Shown here: piece by piece, positions 1 through 51,713 of the stretch | Layout: every line of letters begins with the position of its first letter | How positions within the stretch are numbered: the stretch's first letter is position 1 | Assembly (NCBI GenBank): GCA_025350245.1 | Contig: JANXYG010000007.1 | Span: forward strand, 1,615-65,614 | Origin: Betaproteobacteria bacterium | GTDB taxonomy: Bacteria; Pseudomonadota; Gammaproteobacteria; Burkholderiales; Ga0077523 | Reading direction: 5' to 3' | DNA length: 64,000 nt | The notes under the pieces: model-generated | The model's input: only the letters and a program-made list of their open reading frames with translations | Told to the model about the DNA's origin: nothing | Database searches by the model: none | Program-made: the position numbers and the translations under genes

Positions 1-31
1 GGGGAAGTGACAGGTAGCCGCTTCTAACGGA

Positions 32-433
32 ATGAGCGAACTGACATACGACCCAGGCGAGCACAGGGCGAAGCATTGCTGGAACAATACTCATGCAGAA
101 GTAGTCCGGAATGGCTCGGCGGCGGTCGGCAAGTGCCCAAGCACGCTTGGCAAAGAGCAGGCTCGCAACCTGTTGGATGATGCAGAGTACGAAGGAAAGG
201 TGGCCGGCCAGCCAATCAGCGAAGTGCAGCCACAACGCATGTGGAACGTCCATCGGGGGGTTGTCTACGAGGCCGTGCCTACTCAGGCAGGGTCGTATCA
301 CGGATATCCTTGGTTCGGACGGCCGGGGCGAAATCGGCTCTCGCGCTCAGTGCGAGCCGCGCTAAAACAACGTGCGGAACAACAAGGTTTTGGTCGAGAA
401 TTTCGCGATTGGATGGCAACTCATGAAAGCTAG
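32..433 (+). CDS. hypothetical small protein (133 aa), possible ribonuclease-like toxin partner of the downstream ImmA/IrrE protein
   Basis: ORF track. The 3' end overlaps ATG 423 of the next ORF by 11 nt. GC is visibly lower than in neighbouring core genes. The segment AVPTQAGSYHGYPW...GRPGRNR weakly recalls RNase Sa (VLPTQSYGYYHEYTV...PGARTRGTRR); this comes from memory and is unverified. Confidence 0.5.
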   Translation: MSELTYDPGEHRAKHCWNNTHAEVVRNGSAAVGKCPSTLGKEQARNLLDDAEYEGKVAGQPISEVQPQRMWNVHRGVVYEAVPTQAGSYHGYPWFGRPGRNRLSRSVRAALKQRAEQQGFGREFRDWMATHES

Positions 434-1895
434 CCCGGTACTGCGCTTCGAGTTTTCGCCGGCTCAAGACCCCAATCTCCGGAATGATGGATGGGGCCAA
501 GGGACGCTTCAAGTGTATGGTCGACCCTACTGGTTCTTCAACTCCGAGAGTGATCCGCAGCCAGTGGAGTGGACTTGGGTAGACTTTCTAGAGCATGTTG
601 CCGAGATGTGGGGTTCCCTTATCGCGGAACAGGCATATCCATTTAGTTGGCTTGACGAAGCCACTCATCCAGGCGAGTTGTGGAAGGTCGCTGATCGGCG
701 CTGGGCGAAAATGGGGGGTACGGTCGCTGATCAGGAAGAGCCATTACTAGTAGCGTTCGATCGGCGACACAACTTGTCGGCGGCATGGAAGGGCATCGGC
801 TTACCCGCCTTGACTTGGTTTCGGGTTGGAGAGACGGTATGGCTTTGTCCCGAAGGAGGCGATCCAATTCGTGCTTCATTTCACGAATGTCGGAGTGCAC
901 TTTTGTCTTTTGGAAATGAACTCGCGGACGCCTACTCAGCTTCGAGCAATGCCCGCGTTGCTACCGCAGTAAGCGCGTGGCGGGGGCGAGGTGAAGTATT
1001 TCGTAGCCATTTTCCGGAGATTGCCACTGGACTGTCGCGAGATCAGCTCCTGTCAATTCAAGGTGGACAAAACGCATCTGGCTACTGGGAGTTCTTGAGC
1101 ACCTCCGATTGGGAGTCAGGCCAAGTCGCCGAAGGGGAGTTGCTTGCCGCAGCGAGGATGACTGCCGGCATACTCGATACCGCTTCGATTGGCAGAGTGG
1201 TTCGGGACATCCGCCGCCTGGGCAATCGTATTTGCGGGGAACTAGATACGCTGACTGCCAAGACTTCTGCCCACGTCTCTAGCGTCCAAGCTCGGTTTGC
1301 CTTCGAAGCTGGGTATTGCGCTGCAGACTTCTTTAAGGTGAGTTCTTCCATTACGAATCAAAAGTACGTAGATATTCGCGAGGTACTTGGAAGGCTGAAT
1401 GTTGGGTTGATCGATCTTGACTTAGGCACTAACAAAATAGACGCTGTTGCTATTTGGGGTACGCGTGGTCCGTATGTCGTACTGAATTCAGTGCGTAAAT
1501 ACGCAGAGAACGAGAAGCGGACCCGGATGACTTTAGCGCACGAACTATGTCACTTGCTGGTGGACCGAAAGGGCGGGCTTCCGTTTTGCGAAGTATTGGG
1601 TGGTCAGGTCGACGATTTTGTTGAGCGGCGAGCGAGCGCCTTCGCAGCCGAGCTTTTGCTACCACGTGAATCGGTGGAGTACGACTGGCGCCTCTGGCGT
1701 GACGGATTCCAGAATTTTTTGTTGATGCTGGGTCAGGTCTACGGAGTAAGTAAGTCAGTGGCCTGCGCCCAAATCCACAACTGCACCGTCTTCGCGAAGC
1801 TCGATCAGCTAGCGCAAGACTACGTAGAGAAACGCTTGCGCATCGAAGGGTACACAAATCCAGAGGCCGTCCGCGTTGTTGCTGGGGTTGTGTGA
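423..1895 (+). CDS. ImmA/IrrE-family (COG2856-like) zinc metallopeptidase domain protein with a large uncharacterised N-terminal region
   Basis: The C-terminal region has TLAHELCHLLVD (HEXXH) followed by ERRASAFAAELLLP, typical of ImmA/IrrE peptidases. The first ~380 aa are not recognisable. Start is ambiguous (ATG 423 vs GTG 372). Confidence 0.75.
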   Translation: MKASPVLRFEFSPAQDPNLRNDGWGQGTLQVYGRPYWFFNSESDPQPVEWTWVDFLEHVAEMWGSLIAEQAYPFSWLDEATHPGELWKVADRRWAKMGGTVADQEEPLLVAFDRRHNLSAAWKGIGLPALTWFRVGETVWLCPEGGDPIRASFHECRSALLSFGNELADAYSASSNARVATAVSAWRGRGEVFRSHFPEIATGLSRDQLLSIQGGQNASGYWEFLSTSDWESGQVAEGELLAAARMTAGILDTASIGRVVRDIRRLGNRICGELDTLTAKTSAHVSSVQARFAFEAGYCAADFFKVSSSITNQKYVDIREVLGRLNVGLIDLDLGTNKIDAVAIWGTRGPYVVLNSVRKYAENEKRTRMTLAHELCHLLVDRKGGLPFCEVLGGQVDDFVERRASAFAAELLLPRESVEYDWRLWRDGFQNFLLMLGQVYGVSKSVACAQIHNCTVFAKLDQLAQDYVEKRLRIEGYTNPEAVRVVAGVV

Positions 1896-1947
1896 GCCAC
1901 TCCTTCCGATCGATGGTCTTCCGACATCAGTTTTCCAATCCCGCCGA

Positions 1948-2400
1948 TCAGCCCATATCCTCCCGCACCGCATCGGCCCAGCAGTTGGGCGTTTCGTACA
2001 GCCTGACTCTTTCGAGCACCAGGTGATTGCCGTAGCGGTCGCGAAATGCCGGGTCGAGCAGCCGGAAGGCAACCACGGCCAGATGTTCGGCCGTCGGCGG
2101 CGAGTCGAACTCGATGGTGCGATGGCCGGGGATCGAGGCGAGGAAGGCACGCACGATGTCGTCGTCACGATGCACCAGGAATGCGTGGTCCCAACGCTCC
2201 ACCACTCGCTCGGCGGCAATGGCCTTGACCTCGGAAAAGTCCATGACCATGCCCTCGTTTGCCGCACCGTGGAGGCCGATCGGATCACCTGCGAGGGTGA
2301 CTTCGAGGGCGTAACGATGCCCGTGCAGGTGGCGGCAGAGATTATCGTGAGCGGCGATGCGGTGACCCGCATCGAACTCGAGACGGCGCGTGATGCGCAT
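1948..2400 (-). CDS. queD: 6-carboxy-5,6,7,8-tetrahydropterin synthase (QueD / PTPS family)
   Basis: 150-aa ORF with the FDAGHR...LHGHRY...E motif pattern and the size typical of QueD. Confidence 0.88.
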   Translation of the reverse strand: MRITRRLEFDAGHRIAAHDNLCRHLHGHRYALEVTLAGDPIGLHGAANEGMVMDFSEVKAIAAERVVERWDHAFLVHRDDDIVRAFLASIPGHRTIEFDSPPTAEHLAVVAFRLLDPAFRDRYGNHLVLERVRLYETPNCWADAVREDMG

Positions 2401-2508
2401 GGGATAGCGGCGCGGAAAAAAAACGCGCGAAGTGTAGCACCGGCCCGTCGCCGGGCCGGTTTTGCTGCTGGTATCGTTGTTCAGTTGGTCGGGGAGGGGC
2501 CGGACTTT

Positions 2509-2832
2509 TCAGGCGGCGCGGCGGTCGGCCACGCGTTTCTGAGGAGTGCGACTGGCGCTCGCTTCGGTCTTGAGGCGCCTGAACAGCACCGGTTCTTCGG
2601 CCTTGAGATAGCTCAGCACCTCGAAGTCGCCGCGCTTGACCCGCGACAGATCGATGCGATCGACATGCACGAGGCGCAGCAACTGGAGCACAGGTTTGGG
2701 CATGGTGCGACCACTCTCGTACCGCGATCCACCACTTTGGGTGACGCCGATCATGCCCCAGAACTCCTGCTGGTTCATGCCGAGCTTGTGGCGGATGTCA
2801 CGCGGATCATATAAACGGGTTTCTTTTTTCAT
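2509..2832 (-). CDS. XRE-family helix-turn-helix transcriptional regulator
   Basis: 107-aa ORF. The segment IRHKLGMNQQEFWGMIGVTQSGGSRYESGR matches the XRE HTH pattern. Confidence 0.75.
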   Translation of the reverse strand: MKKETRLYDPRDIRHKLGMNQQEFWGMIGVTQSGGSRYESGRTMPKPVLQLLRLVHVDRIDLSRVKRGDFEVLSYLKAEEPVLFRRLKTEASASRTPQKRVADRRAA

Positions 2833-3062
2833 GGGTGCCTCGTAGGATTTTTGTCATGCGTCGGTGGCCGCCGCTGTAGACACTTGGCTTTGAGCAAGCC
2901 GCGGGTCGATGAGTTCCATGCCAGCGGTATTGAAAAACGCGATCGGGGAGGCGCCCGGGTGCCAGGCAATGCGAGATCGGCAATTCGGCATGGCGCAGCA
3001 CCTCGGCGGCACGCGCCGGTTTGACCCGGTGTTTCGTGCACAGGTATATTCAGCAGGATATT

Positions 3063-3139
<77 letters not shown>

Positions 3140-3167
3140 ACAGACTGGCTCCACGCCGAACCTTTGT

Positions 3168-3243
3168 GTGCCCGTAGCTCAACGGATAGAGCACCTGCCT
3201 TCTAAGCAGGTGGTTGCGGGTTCGATTCCTGCCGGGCATGCCA
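3168..3243 (+). tRNA. tRNA-Arg (anticodon TCT)
   Basis: Acceptor GTGCCCG/CGGGCAT, anticodon loop CTTCTAA, GGTTCGATTCC T-arm, 3' CCA. Confidence 0.93.
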
Positions 3244-3393
3244 CCCCATAGGTTCGATGCAGCCAGGGTCGGCGCGGTCGTTTGTCCAGGCTGCTTCCGT
3301 CCAAGCTGTTCCTTGCCGCAAGCCAGGTTTTTGTCCATACTTCGGCGTCCTTTTGTGACTCGGATGCATCATCTTCGGGTTGCTCGGGTCGAT

Positions 3394-3470
3394 GGTGGCG
3401 GTAGCTCAGCTGGTAGAGTCCCGGATTGTGATTCCGGTCGTCGTGGGTTCGAGTCCCATCCGCCACCCCA
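3394..3470 (+). tRNA. tRNA-His (anticodon GTG), with extra 5' G(-1)
   Basis: GGTGGCGGTAGCTCAGC..., anticodon loop TTGTGAT, GGTTCGAGTCC T-arm, 3' CCCA. Confidence 0.93.
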
Positions 3471-3544
3471 GTTTCCGACGATTTCAACGGCCACCCCGGC
3501 CGTTTCGTATCTGATCGCGCTGTGCCGCGATCCTCGCCAACACT

Positions 3545-5136
<1,592 letters not shown>

Positions 5137-5140
<4 letters not shown>

Positions 5141-7044
5141 TCCAGCTCCGCGGCGTCACCCTGCTGCGCGGGGTCAAGCGGCTGCTCGATGGCGCCAGCC
5201 TGGCGGTGCATCCCGGCCAGAAGATCGGCATCATCGGCGGCAACGGTTGCGGCAAGTCGAGCCTGTTTCGCCTGCTGCTCAACGACCTTCACCCCGAAGC
5301 CGGCGACGTCTCCGTGCCGGCGCGCTGGGTCGTGGCCACGGTGGAGCAGGAGACCGAGGCGCTGGATCGGGTGGCGATCGAATTCGTCATCGACGGCGAC
5401 GCCGAGCTGCGGACCATCGAGCGTGAGCTTGCCGAGGCCGAAGCGGCGGAAGACGGCATGCGCCAGGGCGAGTTGCACGGGCGCCTGGGTGAGATCGACG
5501 GCTATGGCGCGCGGGCCCGCGCGGCCACTTTGCTGTCCGGTCTGGGCTTCGCGCAGGTCGATCATGTCCGGCCGGTGGCCGATTTCTCCGGCGGCTGGCG
5601 GGTGCGCCTTCAGGTGGCGCGTGCGCTCATGTCGCGCTCCGATCTGCTGCTGCTCGACGAGCCCACCAATCACCTCGACCTCGACGCCGTCATCTGGCTC
5701 GAGCAGTGGCTCAAGGCCTACCCCGGAACCTTGCTGGTCATCTCGCATGACCGCGAGTTTCTCGACAATGTCGTGGGCGCCGTGTGCCATTTCGAGAGCA
5801 AGCAGCTAAAACTCTATTCCGGCGGCTACTCCGATTTCGAGCGGGCACGAGCCGAAGCGCTCGATCAGCAGAACGCCCTGCATGTGAAGCAGCAGCGGCA
5901 GATCTCGCACCTGGAGTCGTACATCGAGCGCTTCCGTGCCAAGGCCACCAAAGCGCGGCAGGCGCAAAGCCGCATCAAGGCGCTCGACCGCATCAAGGTG
6001 GTGGCACGCGCGCAGGCGGATGCGCCCTTCGACTTCGAATTTGCCGATCCCGGTGGCGCCGCCGACCCGCTGCTGTTGCTCGAACATGTCGTCGGGGGCT
6101 ACGGCGGCACCCGCATTCTCGATGACGTGACGATCAACGTGCGCCCCGGTTCGCGCATCGGCCTGCTGGGCCGTAATGGTGCCGGCAAATCGACACTGAC
6201 CAAGCTGATGGCCGGCACCCTGCCGCCGATGACCGGCGAACGCCTTGAAGGCAAGGGGCTGCGCATCGGCTACTTTGCCCAGCACCAGCTCGAACAGCTT
6301 CGGTCCGACGACACGCCGCTACGCCACATGACCCGCCTCGATCCGCGAACCCGCGAGCAAGACCATCGCGATTTTCTCGGTGGCTTCGGTTTCCGGGGCG
6401 ACGAAGCCCTGATGCCCGTGGGGCCGATGTCCGGCGGCGAGAAGGCCCGGCTCGCGCTCGCCCTGATCGTGTACACCAAGCCGCATCTGCTGTTGCTGGA
6501 CGAGCCGACCAACCACCTGGATCTGGCGATGCGCGCCGCGTTGATGCTGGCGCTCCAGTCGTTCACCGGAGCGCTCGTGCTGGTGTCGCACGATCGCAGC
6601 CTGCTGCGCACGGCGGTCGATGAATTCCTGCTGGTGGCCGATGGCAAGGTGAGTCCGTTCGACGGTGATCTCGACGACTATCGCGACTGGTTGTCGGCCA
6701 AGCCCGCCGTCGCCAACAGCGCGCCGGGGCCGGCTCCCGACAGCGGTGCCTCGCGGCGGGACAAGCGCCGCGACGATGCCGTCGATCGCGGCCGGGCCGG
6801 GTCCCGGCGCAAGCCGCTGCAGCAGGAGATCACCACCGTGGATCGCGATCTGGCGCAACTTCAGGGGCAACGCCTTCAGCTTGAAAAGCGCCTCGCCGCG
6901 CCCGACATTCATCAAGGCGCGAATCGCCAATTGCTGGCCGATTGCACCCGCGATCTCGGGCAGGCAGGCGCCCGGATTCGGCAGCTCGAAGACCGCTGGC
7001 TTGTTCTTCACGAGCAGTTGGAGCAGTTCACCGACACGGTCTGA
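5137..7044 (+). CDS. yheS: ABC-F family ATPase (YheS-like) with C-terminal coiled-coil tail
   Basis: 635 aa, tandem ABC domains ([34 protein letters not shown] twice). GTG start overlaps the ybiT stop (GTGA). Confidence 0.85.
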
Positions 7045-7111: not shown

Positions 7112-8017
7112 GTGTTCAAGCGTATCGGACTATTCCTGATCACCAACCTGGCCGTGGTGTTCGTCCTGAGCATCACCGCGCAGTTGCTGGGCGTGAACCG
7201 CTGGCTCACCGCCAACGGCCTGAATCTCGGCGGCCTGCTGATGTTCTCGCTGCTGTTCGGTTTTGGCGGCGCCTTCATCTCGCTGGCGATTTCCAAATGG
7301 ATGGCCAAGCGCTCGACCGGCGCGCGCGTCATCGATGAGCCCCGCAACGCCACCGAGCGCTGGCTGGTGGATACCGTGGCGCGGCAGGCGCAGGCCGCCG
7401 GCATCGGCATGCCCGAAGTCGCCATCTACGAGGCACCCGAGATCAATGCGTTCGCCACCGGCATGAGCCGCAACAGCGCTCTGGTGGCGGTCAGCACCGG
7501 TTTGCTCAACAGCATGTCGAAAGACGAAGCCGAGGCAGTTCTCGGGCACGAGATCAGCCACGTGGCCAACGGCGATATGGTCACGCTCACCCTGATCCAG
7601 GGTGTGGTGAACACGTTCGTCATCTTCCTGTCGCGCGTGGTCGGCTACGTGGTCGACCGCGTCATCCTCAAGAACGACGGCCGCAACACCGGCATCGGCT
7701 TCTTCGTGGCGACCATGGTCACGGAAGTGCTGCTCGGCATCGTCGCCAGCATGATCGTGGCGTGGTTCAGCCGGCGCCGGGAATTTCGGGCGGATGCCGG
7801 TGGCGCAAACCTGGCCGGCCGCGACAAGATGGTCGGCGCCCTCCAGCGGCTCAAGCAGGCCTACGAGCCGGCGACCCTGCCCGAAGGGCTCCAGGCCTTC
7901 GGCATCTCAGGCGGCGGGCACGGCGGACTCAAGGCGCTGTTTCTCTCCCATCCGCCGCTGGATGACCGGATAGCGGCATTGCGCGCCACTGCCGCGAATT
8001 CGGCTGGTTCGCACTAA
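7112..8017 (+). CDS. htpX: membrane zinc metalloprotease HtpX
   Basis: [13 protein letters not shown]... N-terminus, [10 protein letters not shown] motif and transmembrane segments. GTG start at 7112 preceded by GGAGG at 7103-7107. The longer ORF from 6665 is rejected. Confidence 0.9.
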
Positions 8018-8033
8018 ATCACTGACCCAACTG

Positions 8034-8339
8034 ATGCGTAAATCACTTCGATATCCGAACCGCGCGCCGACTCACCCGGGCGCCATTCTTCGAGAGGACG
8101 TGTTGCCGGCAACCGGTCTCACGCGGGCGGAGGTTGCCCGGCGCCTGGGCGTGTCGCGGCTGTCGGTGTACGAGCTGCTGAACGAGAAGCGGGCGCTGTC
8201 GCCTGACATGGCGATGCGCCTGGGCCGGCTGCTCGGCGACGGGCCGGCGATCTGGCTGCGCATGCAGCAGACTCGCGACCTTTGGGCGCTTGAACAGCGC
8301 GGAGGCTATGAAGATATAGAGGCGCTCGCAGTGGCGTGA
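8034..8339 (+). CDS. higA: HigA-family antitoxin-like HTH protein (no adjacent HigB)
   Basis: 101 aa. HPGAILREDVL...GLTRAEVARRLGVSRLSVYELLNEKRALSPDMAMRL is the classic HigA/VapI pattern. Confidence 0.78.
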   Translation: MRKSLRYPNRAPTHPGAILREDVLPATGLTRAEVARRLGVSRLSVYELLNEKRALSPDMAMRLGRLLGDGPAIWLRMQQTRDLWALEQRGGYEDIEALAVA

Positions 8340-8436
8340 CGGTATTGGGCCAACCGCCAAGCGTGGAGCCAAGCCGGAGGCTTGGAAATGAATCGGCGCA
8401 GCATCGGATTGTCGCGATCCCCCATCGATAGCGATC

Positions 8437-8528
8437 AACCCCTTGTTTCCATGGCGCCCCGAACACGAATCGAACGTGTGACCTACCCCTTAGGAGGGGG
8501 TTGCTCTATCCACTGAGCTACCGGGGCG
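8437..8528. repeat. 92-bp direct repeat (distal att site of the island), identical by eye to 15789..15880
   Basis: Manual comparison: AACCCCTTGTTTCCA plus the full tRNA-Arg(CCT) sequence plus 1 nt is present at both positions. Flanks diverge immediately outside. Confidence 0.9.
8452..8527 (-). tRNA. tRNA-Arg (anticodon CCT), duplicated full-length copy at the distal island end
   Basis: The reverse complement gives GCCCCGGTAGCTCAGTGGATAGAGCAACCCCCTCCTAAGGGGTAGGTCACACGTTCGATTCGTGTTCGGGGCGCCA. The upstream (5') flank is island DNA, so expression is uncertain. Confidence 0.8.
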
Positions 8529-8825
8529 GGGTCACATGCTCGCCGCCTTTCGCCTTACCCATCACACGCTTAGGTTGAAAATCGAAGGCGCCCCGGCACG
8601 GGAACGGTAGCCCCGTTGACAGGCGTTTTCAAGCGTTGACTGTGATGGAACTGTGATGGAGTTTGCGGGACCGATGGCCATCACTCGCATCAACTGGCGG
8701 GCCGGTTGCCGGTCTCCCTCGCGCGCGCGCGTTTTGTCGGGCGGGAAGCCTCGCGCGCGTGCGCGCGCGTGCGTAATGGTCAGGAAACGCCAATAAACAA
8801 TCCTAAAGTATTGATTAACAATAAG

Positions 8826-9074
8826 TTATTTCAACTGACTGTTGTTTCCGGAAAGGGCTTCGATGGCTCGCACGATGGCGCGGCTGTAGCTCTCGCCTGG
8901 GCGCATCTGTGCCACGAGGGCTTCGTACTGGTCGGGCGTCAGCAGCAGGTCAATGCGGCGCACCCCGGCCTTCGCTTGGCGCTCTCGGAAGAGGCGTAAA
9001 TTGCGGCGATTTATGCCCTTGCGCTGTTTGCGCTGCTGTCGTTCCAGACGGGCCAGCCATGTCGTCCGGCTCAT
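8826..9074 (-). CDS. small basic hypothetical protein (82 aa), second gene of the island cargo operon
   Basis: Its ATG at 9074 overlaps the TGA stop (9071-9073) of the upstream cargo ORF (ATGA). The sequence is Arg/Lys-rich (MSRTTWLARLERQQRKQRKGINRRNLRLFRERQAKAG...). The longer ORF form to 9131 is rejected. Confidence 0.5.
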   Translation of the reverse strand: MSRTTWLARLERQQRKQRKGINRRNLRLFRERQAKAGVRRIDLLLTPDQYEALVAQMRPGESYSRAIVRAIEALSGNNSQLK

Positions 9075-10534
9075 TGACCGGGTTCGCCTTGCTCGCGGCG
9101 GATTCGGCCTTCTAGGAGCCGGTACACCCACGGGCTGAAGACAGCACCCTGGCTGGCTGCCTTGTACAGAGACGCCCGAAAGCTGGCGGCATCGAAATAC
9201 TGACTCTTGAGCAATTCATGTGTGCTGGCCATCTGGGCCAGGAGTGCCCCTGGTGACTCCGATTTCATCGCGAGTACGGCCATGCAGACCCATCGGGCAG
9301 CCGTGGCGCCGGTAGCGATAGTCCATGTCAGTTGCCTATCGTCGCCGCCGACGAAACTGGCAATCAGATATGTAGCCGATAGCGCCAATCCCTCAAGCAG
9401 CGCGTACCCGACCAGCTTAATGACATCGGTAATGGGGAGGCTGAGAATCTTGTCCTCGGAAAACACCGATTCCTTATAGGCAACACACTCCGCATATATC
9501 AGCGCATCCATCAGAGCCCATTCCAGCGTCGGCGAGAACAACCTTGGGTCACGTAGAAGCTTGTTGGCGATGGATTTGAGTTCATCGACCTTGGGTTCGA
9601 AACCGTACCGTGGAGCGCCAGACTTGCCTTCACCATTTTTCACAATGTGGAACATCCCGAAGTGCCGCCAAAGCTCTTCGTAGTCGCTGGTGAGAGAGGT
9701 GCGTTCTAGTTCCGGTCGCGTTGCTACGAGAGCTAGAAAATCAGTCGGCCAGAGACCGAACATGTCGTTACCTTCAAAGCCTTCAATTTTCTTTGGCAAA
9801 CGAAATGCTGGGCGAATGTCGCGGAGGAATCCAAGTTGACTGATAAGGTCTTCGCGAGCCTCGGGAGACACCGAGAGTCTTGCGGCGGAAGATGCCAATT
9901 CGTTGACGATGGTTGGCATCTGACCGATTTCGCCTGCGTGCTCTTCCCGGAGGGCATGTCTTAATTCATCTGCGCGCGAAGACAGAACCCACCACGGCGT
10001 TTCTACTCTCCCGGTGATGACCTTCATTCGGATATCGGACAGAGACAGAACCATGTAGCCGTGCTCGTCAGGCGCAATTCCGCTGTCGGCCAGTCCTCGG
10101 GGCGTACAGTAGAAATCCATGCTCAGCGGCGAACCGCTATGGACCCAGAGTTCGCGGAACTGGTCCTCTGCCACGGCTATCTCGATTGTGCATTTGGCGA
10201 GATGCCAAGAGTAGCCGACCCTTACCCTAAGCAACCCCGACAGTGCGGCCCCGACTAGCGCCCGATGGAGGTCATCGGACGTGCTTTCGTCGCCGGTGGG
10301 CGGTTCTTGCAGGTCGGGGTGCGACCCATCAGCACATACGATGCGAAGGGTTGCTAGGTGAGTCCGCAGAGGGCCCTTGACGCCTTCGACTGGCACTGGT
10401 CTATCGATATCGATGGGCCAATCGAGCGCAAGCTCGCCACAGAGGGTCGCTTGGCCATTGTCATGGGGAACATGCCATTCCTTCCCCAGTACGCCGCACC
10501 AGCCGCGCAGAATCTTAGATGGAGAGTTCTTCAT
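9071..10534 (-). CDS. hypothetical cargo protein (~487 aa) with two predicted C-terminal transmembrane helices
   Basis: Long ORF in a visibly low-GC stretch. Hydrophobic segments are VIKLVGYALLEGLALSATYLIASFV and LTWTIATGATAARWVCMAVLAM. No family recognised. Start taken at ATG 10534 (MKNSPSK...) and uncertain; the ORF-track start at 10813 runs through the repeat cluster. Confidence 0.6.
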   Translation of the reverse strand: MKNSPSKILRGWCGVLGKEWHVPHDNGQATLCGELALDWPIDIDRPVPVEGVKGPLRTHLATLRIVCADGSHPDLQEPPTGDESTSDDLHRALVGAALSGLLRVRVGYSWHLAKCTIEIAVAEDQFRELWVHSGSPLSMDFYCTPRGLADSGIAPDEHGYMVLSLSDIRMKVITGRVETPWWVLSSRADELRHALREEHAGEIGQMPTIVNELASSAARLSVSPEAREDLISQLGFLRDIRPAFRLPKKIEGFEGNDMFGLWPTDFLALVATRPELERTSLTSDYEELWRHFGMFHIVKNGEGKSGAPRYGFEPKVDELKSIANKLLRDPRLFSPTLEWALMDALIYAECVAYKESVFSEDKILSLPITDVIKLVGYALLEGLALSATYLIASFVGGDDRQLTWTIATGATAARWVCMAVLAMKSESPGALLAQMASTHELLKSQYFDAASFRASLYKAASQGAVFSPWVYRLLEGRIRREQGEPGQ

Positions 10535-10683
10535 GCTTGGTTCTGGAAAATCTACTTGGCATTGGCATCGAACGTGACCACGAGCATGCACACGCACAAC
10601 AGCGTTTTCACCATCGGCTCCCCTCAGAAGTAGATTCCCAGTGCGGACAGCAACAGTAGCAGGCGAACCAGCCACCCGCACCT

Positions 10684-10792
10684 GTTCCCGGAGTTCCCGC
10701 GATTCCCGCCACCTATATGGTTGGCGGGAATCGCGGGAAAATCGGGCGCTTCCTGGATTTCCCGAAATTTCCCACTGCGGGAATCGCGGGAA
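10684..10792. promoter_or_regulatory. repeat cluster (candidate iterons/operator)
   Basis: Perfect 17-bp inverted repeat: TTCCCGCGATTCCCGCC (10694-10710) and GGCGGGAATCGCGGGAA (10723-10739), separated by a 12-nt AT-rich spacer. A third 16-bp direct copy lies at 10777-10792. Several more TTCCC/GGGAA pentamers occur between them. Confidence 0.7.
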
Positions 10793-10796
10793 CATC

Positions 10797-12815
10797 TCAG
10801 GCGCTCCATACAAACTCCGAATCGACCATCACAAGGCGCCTTGCCTGGAGCCCCGTCAACGCCGCCGTGGCACGTTCGGTGCGCCGCTTCTGCTCACAGG
10901 TCAGATGCCGCCGTATCGCGTCTAGCGCATCCTCAAGCGGTACAGCGGGCTTCCCTTGGGGAAGTGAGTCCGGGGCGTCTGTCGGGCGTTCCTTTGACGC
11001 TGATTTGAGCAGTTCGGTAATGGCGTCCCATGCGACACGCTGATTCCCGCCCTTCGGTGGCATCGCCCGCTTTACCTCGCTCGGCGTGTCGTTGCGCGTG
11101 ACGACGCAGGAGGTTATCGGCTCGCCGTCGAGGTGATTGCCGATTTCGACCGGCCAAAGGGCGAACTCATGCGCGATGCCGTCGGCGCCATCCTTGGACT
11201 TGTCGATTCTCCAGGCTTGCCCGGTATCGGTCCGGATAACCTCGATGCTGGCGTCGAGGGCCGCAATCAGGCTCGAATGCCCGCGTAGTCCCCGGCTTGC
11301 ATCCTTGCCGGAGTGGTGAACCAGCAGAACCAACCCGCCGCAGCGACTCTGCAACGTCTTGGCTGCGTCGATGATGTGGCCCATGTCTGTGCTGCTGTTC
11401 TCGTCGGCGCCACTGGCGGCGCGGTTTAACGTGTCCACGACGAGAAGCCCCCCCGCGCAACCGGACGCCTGCACGGCATCGGCCAGAGACGTTACGTCAT
11501 CGCCCGCCAGCAGCCCGAACGGCTGCATCACGAACCGCAGCTTGTCGGGCATGGCCCGGTTCCGATGAAGTTCCCAGGCACGCACCCGCTGAGCGAATCC
11601 CGCTTCACCTTCGAGGGCGAGGTAGACGACAGGCGCGGCCATCCCCCGGCAGTCGAACCAGCGGGCACCGTCGGCCACGGCGGCGCACAGGTCAAGAGCA
11701 AGAAAGGATTTCCCGCTGCCACTGGCGCCAAAGATGCACGCCAACCCCGTAGCGGGCAGGACGCCACGCACCAGCCATTGCAGGGGCGGCGCCTTCGCAA
11801 CCGCGTCGGCGGCGAGCAGTCGGTAACGCATGCCGGGCGTTTTGGCATGGTCGAGCAGGTCCGCCAGGGCATCGCTGCCGTGCTCCGCTGCGTAGTCGTT
11901 GGCGTCGAAGTTGTTCGCCCTGTCCGATGGCATCACAACCCATGAGCCGTGCACTGCGAGGGCTACCTTTTCGGCGTTGGCTTCCTGGCCACGGTCTGGC
12001 ACCAGCACCAGCGGCAGAGCGCCATGAGCGTCCCGCAGTGCCCGTGCCACGGTCGCCATGCGCCCAGCCCCGAACGTCACCACGGCAGCGCAGCCCGTCG
12101 CGCGCCAGCATGCCCAGGCTTGCCCGATGCCTTCGACGATGAACACGCGGGCGGACTCCGCGATATCGCCCACGATGAACATGGAATCGGCAAACGACGC
12201 GCTGGGAAGGTTCAGCTTTTTGGCGGTACCGGGTGGCGGTATCAACTGGACCGTGCGCAATTCGCCATCGAGCGAGCGCGCCGGGACGACAAGCCAGCCC
12301 GAGACGCGATGGCCACTGACGTGCAGGGCATCCCCGGCAGGGACCAATCGCAATCCGTCGGCACCGCCGCGCTTCGCGATGACGTACGGGTGCGCCTCGG
12401 TTGCGGGTTCGCAGCGCGCCCAGAGTTCGCCGGGCGTCACTCCGGCCGCGTATGCGGGCCTTGGTTGCGATTGCGGGGCGTGGTCCGCGTGACGGTCCCG
12501 GCCGCGCTTGCTGGGCGCGTTGTAGCGCGGCTGAGGCGGCCTGCCGGGATGATGCCTACCGACGGACTGAGCCATGTGAATCAGCGTGCCAGCCGTTACG
12601 GGGCCGGGGCGCACCGAATGCCAAACGGTCGCGCAATCTCGCGCGGAATGAAAGTTTGACGCAGGTTCCGACCATGCTGTGAAATCATCGAGCGAGAGCC
12701 CGGAACTCTTTGCGGCCATGGCAATGACCACCCATTGTTCTCGCGGGCATGCGGGGTCAAGACTGCGAAGTGCGGACAGGGCGGTGTCGCGGTCAATCAT
12801 GCCCACCTCCGCCAT
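10797..12815 (-). CDS. island replication protein: PriCT-2-like N-terminus + Toprim primase + RepA/AAA_25-type helicase ATPase
   Basis: Motifs REQWVVIAMAAKSSGLSLDDFTAWSE (PriCT-2-like), VFIVEGIGQAWACW...LVPDRGQE (Toprim-like), Walker A GASGSGKS and Walker B LLVVDTL. Start may be M1 (12815) or M6 (12800). Confidence 0.82.
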   Translation of the reverse strand: MAEVGMIDRDTALSALRSLDPACPREQWVVIAMAAKSSGLSLDDFTAWSEPASNFHSARDCATVWHSVRPGPVTAGTLIHMAQSVGRHHPGRPPQPRYNAPSKRGRDRHADHAPQSQPRPAYAAGVTPGELWARCEPATEAHPYVIAKRGGADGLRLVPAGDALHVSGHRVSGWLVVPARSLDGELRTVQLIPPPGTAKKLNLPSASFADSMFIVGDIAESARVFIVEGIGQAWACWRATGCAAVVTFGAGRMATVARALRDAHGALPLVLVPDRGQEANAEKVALAVHGSWVVMPSDRANNFDANDYAAEHGSDALADLLDHAKTPGMRYRLLAADAVAKAPPLQWLVRGVLPATGLACIFGASGSGKSFLALDLCAAVADGARWFDCRGMAAPVVYLALEGEAGFAQRVRAWELHRNRAMPDKLRFVMQPFGLLAGDDVTSLADAVQASGCAGGLLVVDTLNRAASGADENSSTDMGHIIDAAKTLQSRCGGLVLLVHHSGKDASRGLRGHSSLIAALDASIEVIRTDTGQAWRIDKSKDGADGIAHEFALWPVEIGNHLDGEPITSCVVTRNDTPSEVKRAMPPKGGNQRVAWDAITELLKSASKERPTDAPDSLPQGKPAVPLEDALDAIRRHLTCEQKRRTERATAALTGLQARRLVMVDSEFVWSA

Positions 12816-13155
12816 TCGCCATCCAGCGATGCAGCTTTCGACGGTCCGCAGCGGTCAGGTGATAGATGCCGCGTTTCACCTCGAACCCATCGCGGTCGAA
12901 TACAGGCGTCCGAGTGCAGGGCAATTGCAGGCCGCGTTTGCGCAGTTCCAAGACAAGGTCCGGACCGTTCGAGCAACCTGCCTCGAAGTCGATGTGCTCA
13001 CGCGGCATCGGGCGGCGCAAAAGTCCGTTCAGCGCACGGAGGTGGCGAGGATTGGTCGTGCCTGTGAATCGACCATTGTCCGCCTGTGCGATAGACTGCG
13101 GATTCGGTTCGCGACGGCCACCACCTTCCCCAAGGTCCCCGGTGGCCGTCATCAT
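12793..13155 (-). CDS. hypothetical island protein (120 aa), possibly winged-helix DNA-binding
   Basis: ORF overlaps the neighbouring genes on both sides (operon-like). TNPRHLRALNGLLRRPMPREHID resembles conserved small proteins seen beside AlpA/primase genes in such islands (from memory). Confidence 0.5.
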   Translation of the reverse strand: MMTATGDLGEGGGRREPNPQSIAQADNGRFTGTTNPRHLRALNGLLRRPMPREHIDFEAGCSNGPDLVLELRKRGLQLPCTRTPVFDRDGFEVKRGIYHLTAADRRKLHRWMANGGGGHD

Positions 13156-13370
13156 TTCGTGCTCCCGCTGAGCAGCGCGCGCAGGTCAGACACCCGCCAT
13201 GCGAGCCGACCGTTTATGCGCAAGGGGGAGATAGGGCCGTTCCCGGAGCAAGCCCACTTCCGCAGGGTTTGGGGCTGCCGGTTGACCGTCCGGGCTGCCG
13301 GGGTGGTTGGCAGCGTGTCGCATTTCTCGGCCAATGCAGCCAAGACAGGAAACTTCTCGTCGCTCATCAT
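13152..13370 (-). CDS. AlpA/excisionase-type small HTH protein
   Basis: 72 aa. TPAARTVNRQPQTLRKWACSGNGPISPLRINGRLAWRVSDLRALL fits the AlpA/Xis-type HTH pattern. The position in the island is typical. Confidence 0.65.
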   Translation of the reverse strand: MMSDEKFPVLAALAEKCDTLPTTPAARTVNRQPQTLRKWACSGNGPISPLRINGRLAWRVSDLRALLSGSTK

Positions 13371-13557
13371 TTCTCCGTTGAGAGACGCGCCTAGGCGGGA
13401 TTGCCTATGTCGGCGCGTTGATGAGCGATTTGTGCGTTACGGCATGGCTAGCGGCAGGTTGCTGGAGATTGTGCCGGTACCTAGAACCAGCATTGATGCG
13501 GGTCTTGAAGGTGCGTGCCGTATCTGAGGCGACCCCACGCCGGTAGGTGGTGCCGGT

Positions 13558-14634
13558 TCATAGCGTTTCGGATAGGGAATCCCATTCGGCAGACCAGTCC
13601 GGGAAATGCTGGTCGATGAAGTTCCCGATGCGAACCTTGTTTGCTCGTCGCGTCGCCACGAGACACATGCCAACCATGGCGGGATTCCATGTTGACGGGA
13701 TGTTTCCCGCCTTGCCTATTGTCACGCGCGCGTGTTTGAGCCAAGCAGGCACATCCGATAGGGCCTTGTCGAGGTCGAGCCTTTTCAGTAGCGGCCAATC
13801 GCTTGCAATAAGTTCCGCTTTGGTCAACGCACGCTTCTGATAACCGCCATCTGGCGCAACCGCGCCGGCAGAACGAGCGTCGGGCTCATCCAGCAGATAC
13901 ATGGAGAATTCGGACTGCGACGCAAGCCAGCGATTGACCGGCGCAACAGCGGTGACCTCGTGCATCGTTGCAGGATGGCACGTATCACCGGCGTTGTAGC
14001 CACGTTGCCGGTCGCGAGGATGTAAGCGCGCCTGCGCCGCAAAGGCGTGTACCTGTTCAGGCACCGGGAAGTCGCTAGGGTCTGCGAAGTTGATTGGATT
14101 CCGTAGGGGAATCTTCCTGTCGGATACGGCAATGACCAGTAATTCTCGCCATCGCGGTATCGCTATCGGTGAGAGTTGGGCGAGTTCGGTCGCAACGTCA
14201 TCGAGGGAGACGATTCCCGCATTCCGTCGCGCTGCCAATTCGGCGGCTTCCTTGTTCCGGCGCTCCACCAATTTGTCCACGAGCGGACCCAACCCCATAG
14301 CGCGCAGTATCACGTCGGCATCGGCCGGGGTCACATACCAATCCCAAGGTTCCGCCTCCACTTCGGCGAGGTCTGAAGGCGGGGCATCGTTCTCGATGTG
14401 GTGCACATCCATGCTCCCATCTCGGACCAGTTCCAGAATGCGGGGAAGCACGAGCGGAATTCCGCTGTTTGGCTCTGGCGTGCCTTGCTCATTCAATGAC
14501 GCGATGATTATCTGGTGCAGCCTCTTGTCGAAGCCATCGTGCTGGTAGTCCGGATGCAGGTACGACACTGCTAAGGCAATCTCCATGGCCAACCTGGCAA
14601 GGTCAGGGCGGCTGTTGTCGTTCGTCGTATTCAT
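13558..14634 (-). CDS. hypothetical island protein (~358 aa)
   Basis: Long ORF between the integrase and alpA-like genes. Start taken at MNTTNDN (14634). No family recognised. Confidence 0.55.
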   Translation of the reverse strand: MNTTNDNSRPDLARLAMEIALAVSYLHPDYQHDGFDKRLHQIIIASLNEQGTPEPNSGIPLVLPRILELVRDGSMDVHHIENDAPPSDLAEVEAEPWDWYVTPADADVILRAMGLGPLVDKLVERRNKEAAELAARRNAGIVSLDDVATELAQLSPIAIPRWRELLVIAVSDRKIPLRNPINFADPSDFPVPEQVHAFAAQARLHPRDRQRGYNAGDTCHPATMHEVTAVAPVNRWLASQSEFSMYLLDEPDARSAGAVAPDGGYQKRALTKAELIASDWPLLKRLDLDKALSDVPAWLKHARVTIGKAGNIPSTWNPAMVGMCLVATRRANKVRIGNFIDQHFPDWSAEWDSLSETL

Positions 14635-14732
14635 CGCACCCCTTCGAGCGCAAACCTTCAAGAGGGGGCGCCAGACAGGCGGGCGAAGGTGTCCCGCTTT
14701 TCGAGCCGTCGCTCTAGTCTGGCGCTTGCTGG

Positions 14733-15725
14733 TCAGGCGAGCTTCTTCACCAATTCCGATGCCTTGAGGTGCGTGTAGCGTTTCAACATCTGGAGCGTCT
14801 TGTGTCCGCTGATGGCGGCAACCTCCATCGGGTTCAACCCGAGTTCAAAGAATCGTGACACGGCTTCATGCCGCAGGTCATGAAAGCGCAAGTCTTCGAT
14901 ATCCGCCGCATGTACAGTCCGGCGCCAGACGTTTTCTAGGCTGTCGGCACGCTTCCAGGTCCAGAACACCCGCCCGTCCTTGATGTGCCGGGGCAGGCCC
15001 GACAGGGCAGCAACGGCAGCGGTACTCAGGGGCACCTGACGGGCGTCGCCGGTCTTCGTGTCGTTCAGGGTCGCCACCCGCGCGGACAGGTCCACGTCGG
15101 CCCAATGCAGGGAGAGGATTTCGCCCATGCGCATGCCGGTCTCGATGGCGAAGCGCACCACGGGCGCGAGCATAGGCGCACGGGTTCCCTTGCATGCTTC
15201 CATCAGATGGGATTCTTCGGGGCCAGACAGGCGACGGTCGCGCCCTCTGGCCACCTGAGGACGCCTAACCAGTTTCGCCGGGTTCGCGACCATCGGGATG
15301 CCCCAGTCCTTCACGGCCACGTCGAACAGGTGCGACAGGGTGTTTAGCTCCTTGACCACGGTCGCCCCCGCGAGTCCTGCGGCTAGGCGCGCATCACGGT
15401 AGTCGGCAATGTGCGTACTGCGAATTGCGGCAAGTGAGAAGGCGCCGAAGTGTTGGCGTAGCTGGTTCAGCCGTTGGGCCTCGTTGCGGGCGGACTTCTT
15501 CATCGGCGTCACTTCCAGCCGGTAACGGTCGATGAGTTCCGCCATGGTCGTGCGTTCGGCCTCGGTGCGGTCAACGAAGATGCCCCGGTCCATCTCTGAT
15601 TCGAGGGTTCGCGCCCATCGTTTCGCATCTGACTTCGTGTCGAAACTCTTGGCGAGGGGTTTCAGCCCGGCCCGCCTCACCTGCACCTGCCACCTGCCGC
15701 TGTCCAGTTTGCGAAGATTTGCCAC
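14733..15725 (-). CDS. tyrosine-type site-specific recombinase (island integrase)
   Basis: C-terminal HDLRHEAVSRF...GHKTLQMLKRYTH motifs. GTG start at 15725 preceded by GGAGGTG. The longer ORF-track form (start 15818) would run into the tRNA repeat and is rejected. Confidence 0.9.
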   Translation of the reverse strand: MANLRKLDSGRWQVQVRRAGLKPLAKSFDTKSDAKRWARTLESEMDRGIFVDRTEAERTTMAELIDRYRLEVTPMKKSARNEAQRLNQLRQHFGAFSLAAIRSTHIADYRDARLAAGLAGATVVKELNTLSHLFDVAVKDWGIPMVANPAKLVRRPQVARGRDRRLSGPEESHLMEACKGTRAPMLAPVVRFAIETGMRMGEILSLHWADVDLSARVATLNDTKTGDARQVPLSTAAVAALSGLPRHIKDGRVFWTWKRADSLENVWRRTVHAADIEDLRFHDLRHEAVSRFFELGLNPMEVAAISGHKTLQMLKRYTHLKASELVKKLA

Positions 15726-15788
15726 TTCACACCTCCAACTGTGATGCAGGTGTGATGGAAAGGCTCCGGCGTCATGGTCGAGGCTGTT

Positions 15789-15880
15789 AACCCCTTGTTT
15801 CCATGGCGCCCCGAACACGAATCGAACGTGTGACCTACCCCTTAGGAGGGGGTTGCTCTATCCACTGAGCTACCGGGGCG
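15789..15880. repeat. 92-bp direct repeat (integrase-proximal att site)
   Basis: Identical by eye to 8437..8528. Confidence 0.9.
15804..15879 (-). tRNA. tRNA-Arg (anticodon CCT), copy retaining the chromosomal 5' flank
   Basis: Same 76-nt sequence as 8452..8527, anticodon loop CTCCTAA. The integrase gene lies immediately 3' of it. Confidence 0.93.
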
Positions 15881-51517: not shown

Positions 51518-51610
51518 GGAGATGTGACCGAGCGGCCGAAGGTGCTCCCCTGCTAAGGGAGTATGCGGGCAAAACCTGCATCCAGGGTTCGAATCCCTGC
51601 GTCTCCGCCA
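51518..51610 (+). tRNA. tRNA-Ser (anticodon GCT), long variable arm
   Basis: GGAGATGTGACCGAGCGG..., anticodon loop CTGCTAA, long extra arm, GGTTCGAATCC, 3' CCA. Confidence 0.92.
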
Positions 51611-51636
51611 GACAGCAACAGCAACAACAGCACATA

Positions 51637-51713
51637 GCGCCCGTAGCTCAGTTGGATAGAGTACCTGGCTACGAACCAGGGGGTCGTGGGTTCGAATCCT
51701 GCCGGGCGCGCCA
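51637..51713 (+). tRNA. tRNA-Arg (anticodon ACG)
   Basis: GCGCCCGTAGCTCAGTTGGATAGAG, anticodon loop CTACGAA, GGTTCGAATCC, 3' CCA. Confidence 0.93.

What the first reader, a model, noticed from the sequence alone, without database searches (positions are those of the whole stretch)
32..1895. Edge-of-window module: small RNase-Sa-like(?) protein overlapping a 490-aa ImmA/IrrE protease with a novel N-terminal domain
The two ORFs overlap by 11 nt and are visibly lower in GC than the adjacent queD. ORF2 ends in a clear ImmA/IrrE HEXXH peptidase domain, preceded by ~380 aa that I cannot assign. ImmA/IrrE proteases normally pair with an adjacent XRE repressor. Here the closest XRE gene (2509..2832) is on the other strand, beyond queD. 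ORF1 has local similarity to microbial guanyl-specific RNases: CPSTLGKEQARNLL / AVPTQAGSYHGYPW / GRPGRNR compared with RNase Sa CLSALPPEATDTLNLI / VLPTQSYGYYHEYTV / PGARTRGTRR. This comes from memory and is weak. The hypothesis is a toxin plus a protease-fused immunity or sensor protein. The window starts at the module, so upstream partners are unseen.
Basis: inference. Interest (0 to 1): 0.62.

Follow-up and report, generated by a model that had tools for sequence, protein, structure and literature searches.

The report
Small protein plus protease: likely toxin-antitoxin pair
This is a widespread, uncharacterised two-gene bacterial operon that looks like a toxin-antitoxin or phage-defence pair: a small basic protein of unknown fold, always followed by a zinc protease with a large unknown N-terminal domain; the proposed RNase Sa likeness does not hold.

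Summary
The described sequence features are real. ORF1 (32..433, 133 aa) overlaps ORF2 (423..1895, 490 aa) by 11 nt. Both sit in a 1.9-kb low-GC islet between a tRNA-Ser gene, just left of the window, and queD. ORF2 ends in an intact ImmA/IrrE (M78) HEXXH peptidase. Its first ~320 aa match no family or solved structure.

The two genes form a strict, co-evolving operon across many phyla. All 52 testable loci found through ORF1 have an ORF2 homolog directly downstream. About 73% of 111 gene junctions overlap. The pairwise-identity matrices of the two proteins correlate at r = 0.83.

The ORF2 scaffold also pairs with other upstream genes. One is a bona fide RelE toxin. There the scaffold carries the N-terminal 60 aa of RelE's usual HTH antitoxin, so the scaffold stands in the antitoxin's place.

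My best explanation is a Rosmer-like toxin-antitoxin or defence module, with ORF1 a new-fold toxin and ORF2 a protease-bearing antitoxin or sensor (confidence about 0.6). Toxicity itself is untested.

The RNase Sa idea fails. The profile match has 2.7% probability, the catalytic Glu and His are absent, and no fold match was found. No prophage immunity region is present, and the nearby HTH gene is not part of the module.

The parts
1..31 (+). 5' leader of the operon. It continues leftwards outside the window to a tRNA-Ser(UGA) gene that ends about 41 nt before position 1.
   Evidence: L001 is 100% identical to the window, and window position 1 equals L001 position 69. L089 is 97.5% identical and carries tRNA-Ser(tga) at 6406..6493. 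No sigma-70-like promoter was found in the 99 nt upstream of ORF1.
32..433 (+). ORF1: a 133-aa basic protein (pI 9.0) of an unnamed family. It is the candidate toxin or effector.
   Evidence: - No hit in Pfam, NCBIfam, PHROGs or PADLOC.
- 312 clusters at 50% identity, and all 150 listed are stand-alone proteins of 79-220 aa.
- dN/dS is 0.05-0.27.
- The AF2 model has pLDDT 86 and pTM 0.82, with no significant PDB or BFVD match.
- Residues Y6, K14, H15, C35, P36, G76, Y79, H90, P93 and W127 are conserved in at least 90% of 88 sequences.
423..433 (+). 11-nt overlap of the ORF1 stop region with the ORF2 start, suggesting translational coupling.
   Evidence: In 111 related loci, 81 junctions overlap. 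The commonest overlaps are 11 nt (27 loci) and 4 nt (26 loci). Most of the rest have gaps of 15 nt or less.
423..1391 (+). ORF2 N-terminal domain (aa 1-323), of unknown family. It has a beta-rich start, then helical and beta segments, with many invariant Trp residues.
   Evidence: - No family hit when scanned alone.
- AF2 pLDDT is mostly above 90.
- The only PDB matches with high Foldseek probability are M78-containing proteins aligned over 173-192 columns, so the N-terminal domain finds no match; the aligned residue range is not shown.
- W37, W50, W63, W94 and W186 are invariant in 63 homologs.
1392..1895 (+). ORF2 C-terminal ImmA/IrrE (M78) zinc metallopeptidase domain with helical tail. HELCH is at nt 1539..1553.
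   Evidence: - Pfam PF06114, E 7e-10.
- PADLOC RmrA E 9e-13 and CapP E 3e-10, through the peptidase core only.
- Foldseek matches CapP 7t5t (E 5e-4) and PprI/IrrE 8slm.
- H373, E374, H377, D381, E401 and E410 are invariant.

Best explanation
ORF1 and ORF2 form a self-contained, horizontally mobile two-gene operon of the toxin-antitoxin or abortive-defence kind. Its closest relatives are systems whose antitoxin carries an ImmA/IrrE zinc peptidase (RosmerTA-like).

ORF1 is a small basic protein with a new fold and a conserved Lys-His...Cys...His set. It is the growth-inhibiting effector.

ORF2 is acidic, with a new ~320-aa N-terminal domain and an active-looking M78 peptidase. It holds ORF1 in check after coupled translation. 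It probably acts as the switch: on a trigger such as phage infection or damage, proteolysis by or of ORF2 frees or activates ORF1.

Neither protein shows a DNA-binding domain, so control would be post-translational rather than by operator binding.

Shown:
- gene structure
- obligate pairing
- co-evolution
- purifying selection
- intact catalytic residues
- partner swapping on the ORF2 scaffold, including a real RelE toxin

Inferred:
- ORF1 toxicity
- physical neutralisation by ORF2
- the protease's substrate
- the trigger
For: 1. Obligate pairing.
Iterating the profile raised this to 68.
- Conversely, of 55 metagenome loci found through ORF1, 52 have an ORF2 homolog directly downstream, 3 are at contig ends, and none is unpaired.
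- Over all loci, 93 have both genes full length.

2. Operon signature. 81 of 111 junctions overlap.

3. Co-evolution and charge.
- Pairwise identity matrices of the two proteins correlate at r = 0.83, Mantel p = 0.001.
- Median pI is 8.8 for ORF1 and 5.4 for ORF2.
- ORF1 is the better conserved partner, at 40% against 32% mean identity.

4. Autonomy and mobility.
- Flanking genes differ from locus to locus and there is no conserved third gene.
- The pair is spread over Pseudomonadota, Planctomycetota, Chlorobiota, Acidimicrobiia, Myxococcota, Desulfobacterota and others.
- In the window it is a low-GC islet next to a tRNA.
- On plasmids it lies next to VapC/Phd and MazEF modules.

5. The ORF2 scaffold stands where an antitoxin stands.
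- In L073 a PF06296 RelE gene (E 2e-49) overlaps a 551-aa ORF2 homolog.
- The first 60 aa of that homolog are 65-70% identical to the N-terminal half of 105-aa HTH proteins.
- Those HTH proteins are the overlapping downstream partners of RelE genes.
- Two further partner types recur, each with a matching N-terminal extension or its own upstream gene. L053 and L067 carry a DUF6575-type extension. L072 and L077 have a different upstream gene.

6. The peptidase core is closest to RmrA antitoxins and to the 'spr1629 family repressor/antitoxin' model. Zn-peptidase antitoxins paired with diverse toxins are experimentally established in RosmerTA (bioRxiv 10.1101/2022.05.11.491447; PMC10440598).

7. 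Several loci keep an intact ORF2 beside only a 3' remnant of ORF1: L021, L033, L035 and L044. Others have no ORF1 at all: L016 and L052.
Against: - No experiment or expression data exists. Only sediment metagenome DNA runs hold the sequence.
- ORF1 has no recognisable toxin domain, and no fusion to polymorphic-toxin carriers was seen.
- Its best structural matches include HigB, ParE and CDI chains, but only at E 0.8-2 and TM below 0.3, which is noise level.
- Gene decay runs both ways. Four loci have an apparently intact ORF1 with a broken ORF2: L060, L074, L110 and L129. Two of these are frameshift splits that could be assembly errors, and the L129 ORF1 lacks its last ~7 aa.
- Enrichment of defence genes among the neighbours is modest.
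- Canonical RmrA has an HTH, and ORF2 does not.
Confidence: 0.6

Rival explanations
1. Protease-substrate regulatory switch of the ImmR/ImmA, CapH/CapP or DdrO/IrrE kind. ORF1 would be a non-toxic regulator, perhaps a DNA binder of unrecognised fold. ORF2 would cleave it on a stress signal to switch on other genes.
For: - Gene order, small protein first and M78 protease second with overlap, is the same as immR-immA and capH-capP (established knowledge; PMC10440598 for ImmA/ImmR).
- The best structural matches of the peptidase are CapP and PprI/IrrE.
- ORF1 is basic and ends in two helices.
Against: - ORF1 has no HTH or other DNA-binding family match and no fold match.
- No cargo gene or operon is conserved beside the pair, so there is nothing obvious to regulate.
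- The same scaffold pairs with a RelE toxin and carries that toxin's antitoxin N-terminus.
Confidence: 0.15
2. Reversed polarity: the ORF2 protease is the toxin and the small upstream ORF1 is its antitoxin. This was predicted in 2009 for COG2856-Xre pairs and proposed for the Brucella ZnMP/HTH-Xre pair.
For: - Antitoxin-first is the commonest type II gene order.
- COG2856 proteases were predicted to be toxins (PMC2701414), and the Brucella pair was interpreted that way (PMC10538038).
- Four loci keep ORF1 with a broken ORF2.
Against: - ORF2 homologs occur intact without any ORF1 (L016, L052) or beside ORF1 remnants (L021, L033, L035, L044).
- ORF1 was never found without ORF2 next to it.
- In L073 the upstream partner is RelE, an undisputed toxin family, and the ORF2 homolog carries antitoxin sequence.
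- Zn-peptidase proteins are the antitoxins in tested RosmerTA systems, where the rmrA deletion could not be transformed (bioRxiv 10.1101/2022.05.11.491447).
- ORF1 is basic and ORF2 is acidic.
Confidence: 0.1
3. One reading: ORF1 is a guanyl-specific microbial RNase of the RNase Sa/T1/barnase family.
For: A colinear local alignment exists: Cys35, a helix, GVVYE...PTQ..YHGY against RNase Sa Cys7, a helix, GVVFQ...PTQ..YHEY. BLASTP gives 13/37 identities. The predicted secondary structure is alpha plus an antiparallel beta meander.
Against: - hhalign probability is 2.7%.
- A profile search of all PDB sequences finds no RNase even at E up to 10.
- Foldseek finds no RNase among the listed PDB matches and nothing with E below 0.001.
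- Catalytic Glu54 aligns with a Gly that is at least 90% conserved, and the QNRE guanine-binding loop falls in a gap.
- The region holding catalytic His85 has no counterpart, because ORF1 is helical there.
- The PTQ motif is not conserved within the ORF1 family.
Confidence: 0.03

Closest known systems
RosmerTA (RmrT/RmrA) and the 'ImmA/Rosmer zone' of the NetFlax toxin-antitoxin network
   Same: - A two-gene module in which the antitoxin carries an ImmA/IrrE zinc peptidase and the toxin is a small protein of variable, often unknown, family.
- Toxin-first order is common (58% in NetFlax node D25, PMC10440598).
- The ORF2 peptidase core scores best against RmrA models (E 9e-13).
- The scaffold swaps partners, as Rosmer antitoxins do.
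   Different: - RmrA-type proteins are about 360-400 aa and often have an N-terminal HTH (PADLOC profile lengths; PMC10440598).
- ORF2 has no HTH. Instead it has an unrelated ~320-aa N-terminal domain, and it matches only positions ~157-312 of the RmrA profiles.
- The ORF1 family is not among the PADLOC RmrT models.
- No defence phenotype has been tested.
ImmR/ImmA (ICEBs1), CapH/CapP (CBASS regulators) and DdrO/IrrE (Deinococcus)
   Same: An M78 HEXXH peptidase of the same fold (Foldseek CapP 7t5t, PprI 8slm). The small partner is encoded directly upstream and overlapping, as in immR-immA and capH-capP.
   Different: In those systems the partner is an XRE-type HTH repressor that controls neighbouring genes. 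ORF1 has no HTH, and no neighbouring cargo is conserved. The only nearby HTH gene (2509..2832) is on the other strand, beyond queD, and is absent from related loci.
Canonical RelE (PF06296) / HTH-antitoxin modules
   Same: Toxin-first, overlapping genes. One ORF2-family member (L073) sits exactly in the antitoxin position and keeps the antitoxin's N-terminal 60 aa.
   Different: In the window the upstream gene is ORF1, not RelE. The HTH half of the antitoxin is replaced by the N-domain plus M78 scaffold.
RNase Sa / N1-T1 microbial ribonucleases
   Same: A short local string resemblance only.
   Different: No significant similarity, the catalytic residues are absent, and no fold match was found.

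Membership tests
ImmA/IrrE (Pfam PF06114, MEROPS M78) metallopeptidase - ORF2 C-terminal domain | Profile match above the curated cut-off | tested here: met
   PF06114 scores 39.2 bits against a cut-off of 22, E 7e-10, aa 324-451.
ImmA/IrrE (Pfam PF06114, MEROPS M78) metallopeptidase - ORF2 C-terminal domain | HEXXH zinc site plus a downstream acidic ligand, conserved | tested here: met
   H373, E374, H377, D381, E401 and E410 are invariant in 63 homologs. The fold matches CapP and PprI.
RosmerTA (RmrA antitoxin / RmrT toxin) | Antitoxin with a Zn-peptidase domain next to a small toxin gene | tested here: met
   The definition is taken from bioRxiv 10.1101/2022.05.11.491447.
RosmerTA (RmrA antitoxin / RmrT toxin) | RmrA architecture: full-length match to RmrA models, usually with an N-terminal HTH | tested here: not met
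   Only the peptidase core aligns, to profile positions ~157-312 of 357-400. No HTH family hits ORF2.
RosmerTA (RmrA antitoxin / RmrT toxin) | Toxicity of the small partner, neutralisation by the peptidase protein, and phage defence | not testable with these tools
   This needs expression and phage challenge experiments.
Type II-like toxin-antitoxin module | Two adjacent co-oriented genes, usually overlapping, inherited as a unit | tested here: met
Type II-like toxin-antitoxin module | Patchy, mobile distribution, with partner swapping among toxin and antitoxin families | tested here: met
Type II-like toxin-antitoxin module | Asymmetric decay: toxin lost and antitoxin kept | tested here: inconclusive
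   About 6-8 loci have an intact ORF2 with ORF1 missing or reduced to a remnant. Four loci show the reverse.
ImmR/ImmA-type repressor-antirepressor pair | Partner is an XRE/cI-type HTH repressor | tested here: not met
   ORF1 has no HTH match. The RsaL-like HTH at 2509..2832 is not conserved with the pair.
RNase Sa / N1-T1 microbial RNase | Significant sequence or profile similarity | tested here: not met
   hhalign probability 2.7%. The PDB profile search finds no RNase at E up to 10.
RNase Sa / N1-T1 microbial RNase | Catalytic Glu54, Arg69 and His85, and the guanine-binding loop | tested here: not met
   Glu54 aligns to conserved Gly91. The QNRE loop falls in a gap. The His85 region is absent.
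RNase Sa / N1-T1 microbial RNase | The alpha plus beta N1/T1 fold | tested here: not met
   A Foldseek PDB search with a pLDDT-86 model finds no match below E 0.001 and no RNase among the 50 listed.

The most novel reading that the evidence does not exclude
The ORF2 body, a new N-terminal domain plus an M78 protease, would be a general-purpose 'hub' antitoxin or sensor scaffold with no DNA-binding domain. It would control unrelated toxins through interchangeable N-terminal adaptors: none for ORF1, a RelE-antitoxin N-terminus in L073, and a DUF6575-type domain in L053 and L067. ORF1 would be a toxin with a previously unseen fold and mechanism. Together they would form a protease-gated abortive-infection family that no current defence or TA catalogue covers.
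Probability: 0.35. Interest if true: 0.7.

Novelty: new variant of a known kind. Interest (0 to 1): 0.55.

Why it matters
If confirmed, this adds three things:
- a new toxin family of about 300 sequence clusters with no recognisable fold
- a new antitoxin architecture for the peptidase-containing (Rosmer-like) branch of toxin-antitoxin and phage-defence systems
- a natural experiment in which the HTH of a classical RelE antitoxin has been replaced by a protease scaffold

The last point bears directly on an open question: what the ImmA/IrrE protease does in such antitoxins. The options are sensing, self-cleavage or toxin processing. In this family, operator binding cannot be the answer.

Public annotation calls the two genes only 'hypothetical protein' and 'ImmA/IrrE family metallo-endopeptidase'.

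Tried and rejected
- **RNase Sa homology of ORF1.** Rejected on sequence, catalytic residues and fold.
- **Prophage immunity region.** No phage or integrase genes lie next to the pair here or in relatives. Neither ORF1 nor the ORF2 N-domain matches any of 50,697 phage records.
- **The RsaL-like HTH (2509..2832) as the missing repressor partner.** It is not conserved with the pair in other loci.
- **ORF1 as the C-terminal domain of polymorphic toxins.** All 150 listed representatives are stand-alone proteins of 79-220 aa.
- **A tRNA-derived att repeat bounding the islet.** No copy of the tRNA-Ser 3' end occurs in the window at up to 3 mismatches.
- **Expression evidence.** Only DNA metagenome runs hold the sequence.
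- **Promoter search upstream of ORF1.** Nothing above background.
- **Prior description in the NetFlax supplement.** Six RefSeq accessions of ORF2-family members were searched in the held files and none was found. The held files may be incomplete.
- **Family scans of alternative upstream partners.** The L053, L067, L072 and L077 partners and the distant ORF1-like proteins with the Y-E-P-N-P-K-H-K motif found nothing. My impression that the L072 and L077 partners look GNAT-like is therefore unsupported.
Full report
**1. What is in the sequence**

- ORF1 runs 32..433 (+, ATG, 133 aa). ORF2 runs from the ATG at 423 to 1895 (490 aa). They overlap by 11 nt.
- GC is 0.51-0.59 across 1..1900 and 0.61-0.70 beyond.
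- ORF2 residues 324-451 match Pfam Peptidase_M78 (ImmA/IrrE) above the curated cut-off. HELCH lies at residues 373-377.
- Downstream, on the other strand, lie queD (PTPS family, 1948..2400) and an RsaL-like HTH_92 gene (2509..2832). A tRNA-Pro/Arg/His cluster follows.
- ORF1 hits nothing in Pfam, NCBIfam, PHROGs or PADLOC. Neither does ORF2 residues 1-326 scanned alone.

**2. What lies to the left of the window**

- Contigs identical to the window (L001-L003) extend only 68 nt further and start inside the 3' end of a tRNA gene.
- A 97.5%-identical scaffold (L089) shows the order PEPCK, an exonuclease, a tRNA U5-methyltransferase, Bax1-I, tRNA-Ser(UGA), then ORF1-ORF2.
- The tRNA ends about 41 nt before window position 1.
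- The module is therefore complete in the window. It is a 1.9-kb low-GC islet between tRNA-Ser and queD.
- It has no integrase, no phage genes, and no tRNA-derived repeat on its right side.

**3. Both genes are real and belong together**

- ORF1 has 26 close homologs. It has 312 representative clusters at 50% identity, and all 150 listed are stand-alone proteins of 79-220 aa.
- dN/dS is 0.05-0.27 for both genes.
- ORF2 has more than 300 homologs. The 120 best listed mostly cover 90-100% of the query, N-terminal domain included.
- A scan of species-representative genomes gave 80 loci across many phyla. Iterating the profile raised this to 68.
- In the reverse direction, 55 metagenome loci were found through ORF1 alone. 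Of these, 52 have an ORF2 homolog immediately downstream, 3 end at the contig edge, and none is unpaired.
- Of 111 junctions, 81 overlap, most often by 11 nt or 4 nt.
- Pairwise identity matrices of the two proteins correlate at r = 0.83, Mantel p = 0.001.
- ORF1 proteins are basic (median pI 8.8) and ORF2 proteins acidic (median 5.4).
- The 148 flanking genes sampled are heterogeneous. Polysaccharide-synthesis genes recur. A few defence or TA genes occur: PtuA/AriA-type ATPases, a type I specificity subunit, AbiEi and PIN.
- No third gene is conserved, and no phage or integrase family is among the 25 commonest.
- Neither ORF1 nor the ORF2 N-terminal domain matches any of 50,697 phage records. 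ORF1 is found on 3 of 72,556 plasmids, where the annotated pair sits next to VapC/Phd or MazEF modules.

**4. Structure**

- The ORF1 model is confident (pLDDT 86, pTM 0.82). It has an extended N-terminus, a beta-hairpin, a helix, a three-stranded meander and two C-terminal helices.
- Foldseek finds nothing significant for ORF1 in the PDB (best E 0.47) or in BFVD (best E 0.2).
- Several RelE, ParE, HigB and CDI chains appear among the top PDB hits. Their E values are 0.8-2 and TM scores below 0.3, so I treat this as noise.
- The ORF2 model has pLDDT 90.9. Its only high-probability PDB matches are three M78-containing proteins (CapP 7t5t, PprI/IrrE 8slm and the M. tuberculosis regulator 6cz6), aligned over 173-192 columns.
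- The first ~320 residues of ORF2 therefore find no match.
- H373, E374, H377, D381, E401 and E410 are invariant in 63 homologs. So are many Trp residues of the N-terminal domain.

**5. The RNase Sa idea**

- hhalign probability is 2.7%. A profile search of all PDB sequences returns no RNase at E up to 10.
- Catalytic Glu54 aligns to a Gly that is at least 90% conserved. The guanine-binding QNRE loop falls in a gap. The His85 segment has no counterpart.
- The PTQ motif is not conserved within the ORF1 family.
- The residues that are conserved across 88 family members are Y6, K14, H15, C35, P36, G76, Y79, A81, H90, P93 and W127.

**6. Which partner is which**

The strongest clue comes from ORF2-family members with other upstream genes.

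- In Thiohalocapsa (L073), a PF06296 RelE gene (E 2e-49) overlaps a 551-aa ORF2 homolog.
- That homolog's extra N-terminal 60 residues are 65-70% identical to the N-terminal half of 105-aa HTH_3 proteins.
- Those HTH proteins are the overlapping downstream partners of RelE genes, that is, their usual antitoxins. One Lamprocystis copy is an orphan.
- So here the N-domain plus M78 scaffold has replaced the HTH half of a classical antitoxin.
- In Sulfuricella (L053) and Amycolatopsis (L067), a different ~150-aa upstream protein is conserved between the two loci.
- It goes with a homologous ~150-190-aa N-terminal extension on the scaffold, which in L067 matches DUF6575 at E 8e-14.
- Two Acetobacteraceae loci (L072, L077) share a third type of upstream gene.
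- More distant scaffold relatives pair with distant ORF1-like proteins carrying the motif Y-E-P-N-P-K-H-K ... C-P ... W-H-G-Y-P.

Decay is only mildly asymmetric.

- An intact ORF2 occurs with only a 3' remnant of ORF1 in L021, L033, L035 and L044, and with no ORF1 in L016 and L052.
- An apparently intact ORF1 occurs with a broken ORF2 in L060, L074, L110 and L129.
- I count this as inconclusive.

**7. Interpretation**

- The pair behaves as an autonomous, mobile, translationally coupled two-gene module.
- The large acidic protein occupies the antitoxin position, and the small basic protein is the obligate partner that is never found alone.
- Zn-peptidase antitoxins paired with toxins of diverse or unknown family are established experimentally as RosmerTA and as the ImmA hub of the NetFlax network (bioRxiv 10.1101/2022.05.11.491447; PMC10440598).
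- The ORF2 peptidase core is closest to those models.
- I therefore propose a Rosmer-like TA or defence module in which ORF1 is a toxin of new fold and ORF2 a protease-bearing antitoxin or sensor without a DNA-binding domain.
- It is not a canonical RmrA. Only the peptidase core aligns, and the HTH is absent.
- ORF1 toxicity, binding between the two proteins, the protease's substrate and the trigger are all inferences.
- Rivals are a non-toxic protease-substrate switch (0.15) and reversed polarity (0.10). The RNase Sa version is essentially excluded (0.03).

**8. Novelty and verdict**

- Public records call the genes 'hypothetical protein' and 'ImmA/IrrE family metallo-endopeptidase'.
- No model in the four family libraries searched covers ORF1 or the N-terminal domain.
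- I found no description in the papers searched. The literature search was limited.
- The finding is a new variant of a known kind, of moderate interest (0.55).
The general hypothesis is supported by comparative genomics. The RNase-specific part is not.

Noticed in passing
window 8455..15879: A ~7.4-kb integrative islet. It runs from tRNA-Arg(CCT) at 8455..8527 (-) to a second tRNA with an identical Rfam score at 15807..15879 (-). It holds a tyrosine integrase (14733..15818, -), an int-alpA RNA (14655..14724, -, 72 bits), a PriCT-2/Toprim/AAA_25 primase-helicase (10797..12815, -) and proteins with no family hit: 580 aa, 367 aa and, if the ORF is real, 282 aa. GC dips to 0.51-0.55 around 9200-10000. 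It looks like a small satellite-like or integrative element.
   Followed up: partly
just left of the window (L001 1..27; L089 6406..6493): tRNA-Ser(UGA) ends about 41 nt before window position 1. Independent assemblies break inside its 3' end. The L089 scaffold repeats 55 nt of it across an N gap, which looks like a k-mer overlap artefact or strain heterogeneity at this site.
   Followed up: partly
window 2509..2832 (-) and 1948..2400 (-): An RsaL-like HTH_92 protein (E 2e-25, with weak MqsA-antitoxin similarity) lies next to queD. It is not conserved with the ORF1-ORF2 pair elsewhere, and its own role was not examined.
   Followed up: no
L019 (62..1495 and 2346..4174); L063 2346..3938; L106 2612..3913; L085: Some genomes carry two copies of the module or of the ORF2 homolog, either in tandem or on the same contig. 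Others carry a degenerate ORF2-like gene just upstream of an intact pair.
   Followed up: no
L073 1498..5145 (-) and 7424..8995 (-): The RelE-partnered ORF2 homolog is flanked by a 1215-aa P-loop protein with the motif GSFGSGKSHF, which by eye resembles BREX PglY/BrxC-type ATPases, and by a 523-aa P-loop protein. This hints at a defence island. It was not scanned against families.
   Followed up: no
L021 4897..5613: In Ectothiorhodospira shaposhnikovii, a zeta-toxin-family P-loop kinase gene (E 3e-9) lies just upstream of an ORF2 homolog that retains only a 30-aa ORF1 remnant.
   Followed up: no
window 51518..51710 (+): Two adjacent tRNA genes, one with a long variable arm (90 nt). Not examined further.
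   Followed up: no
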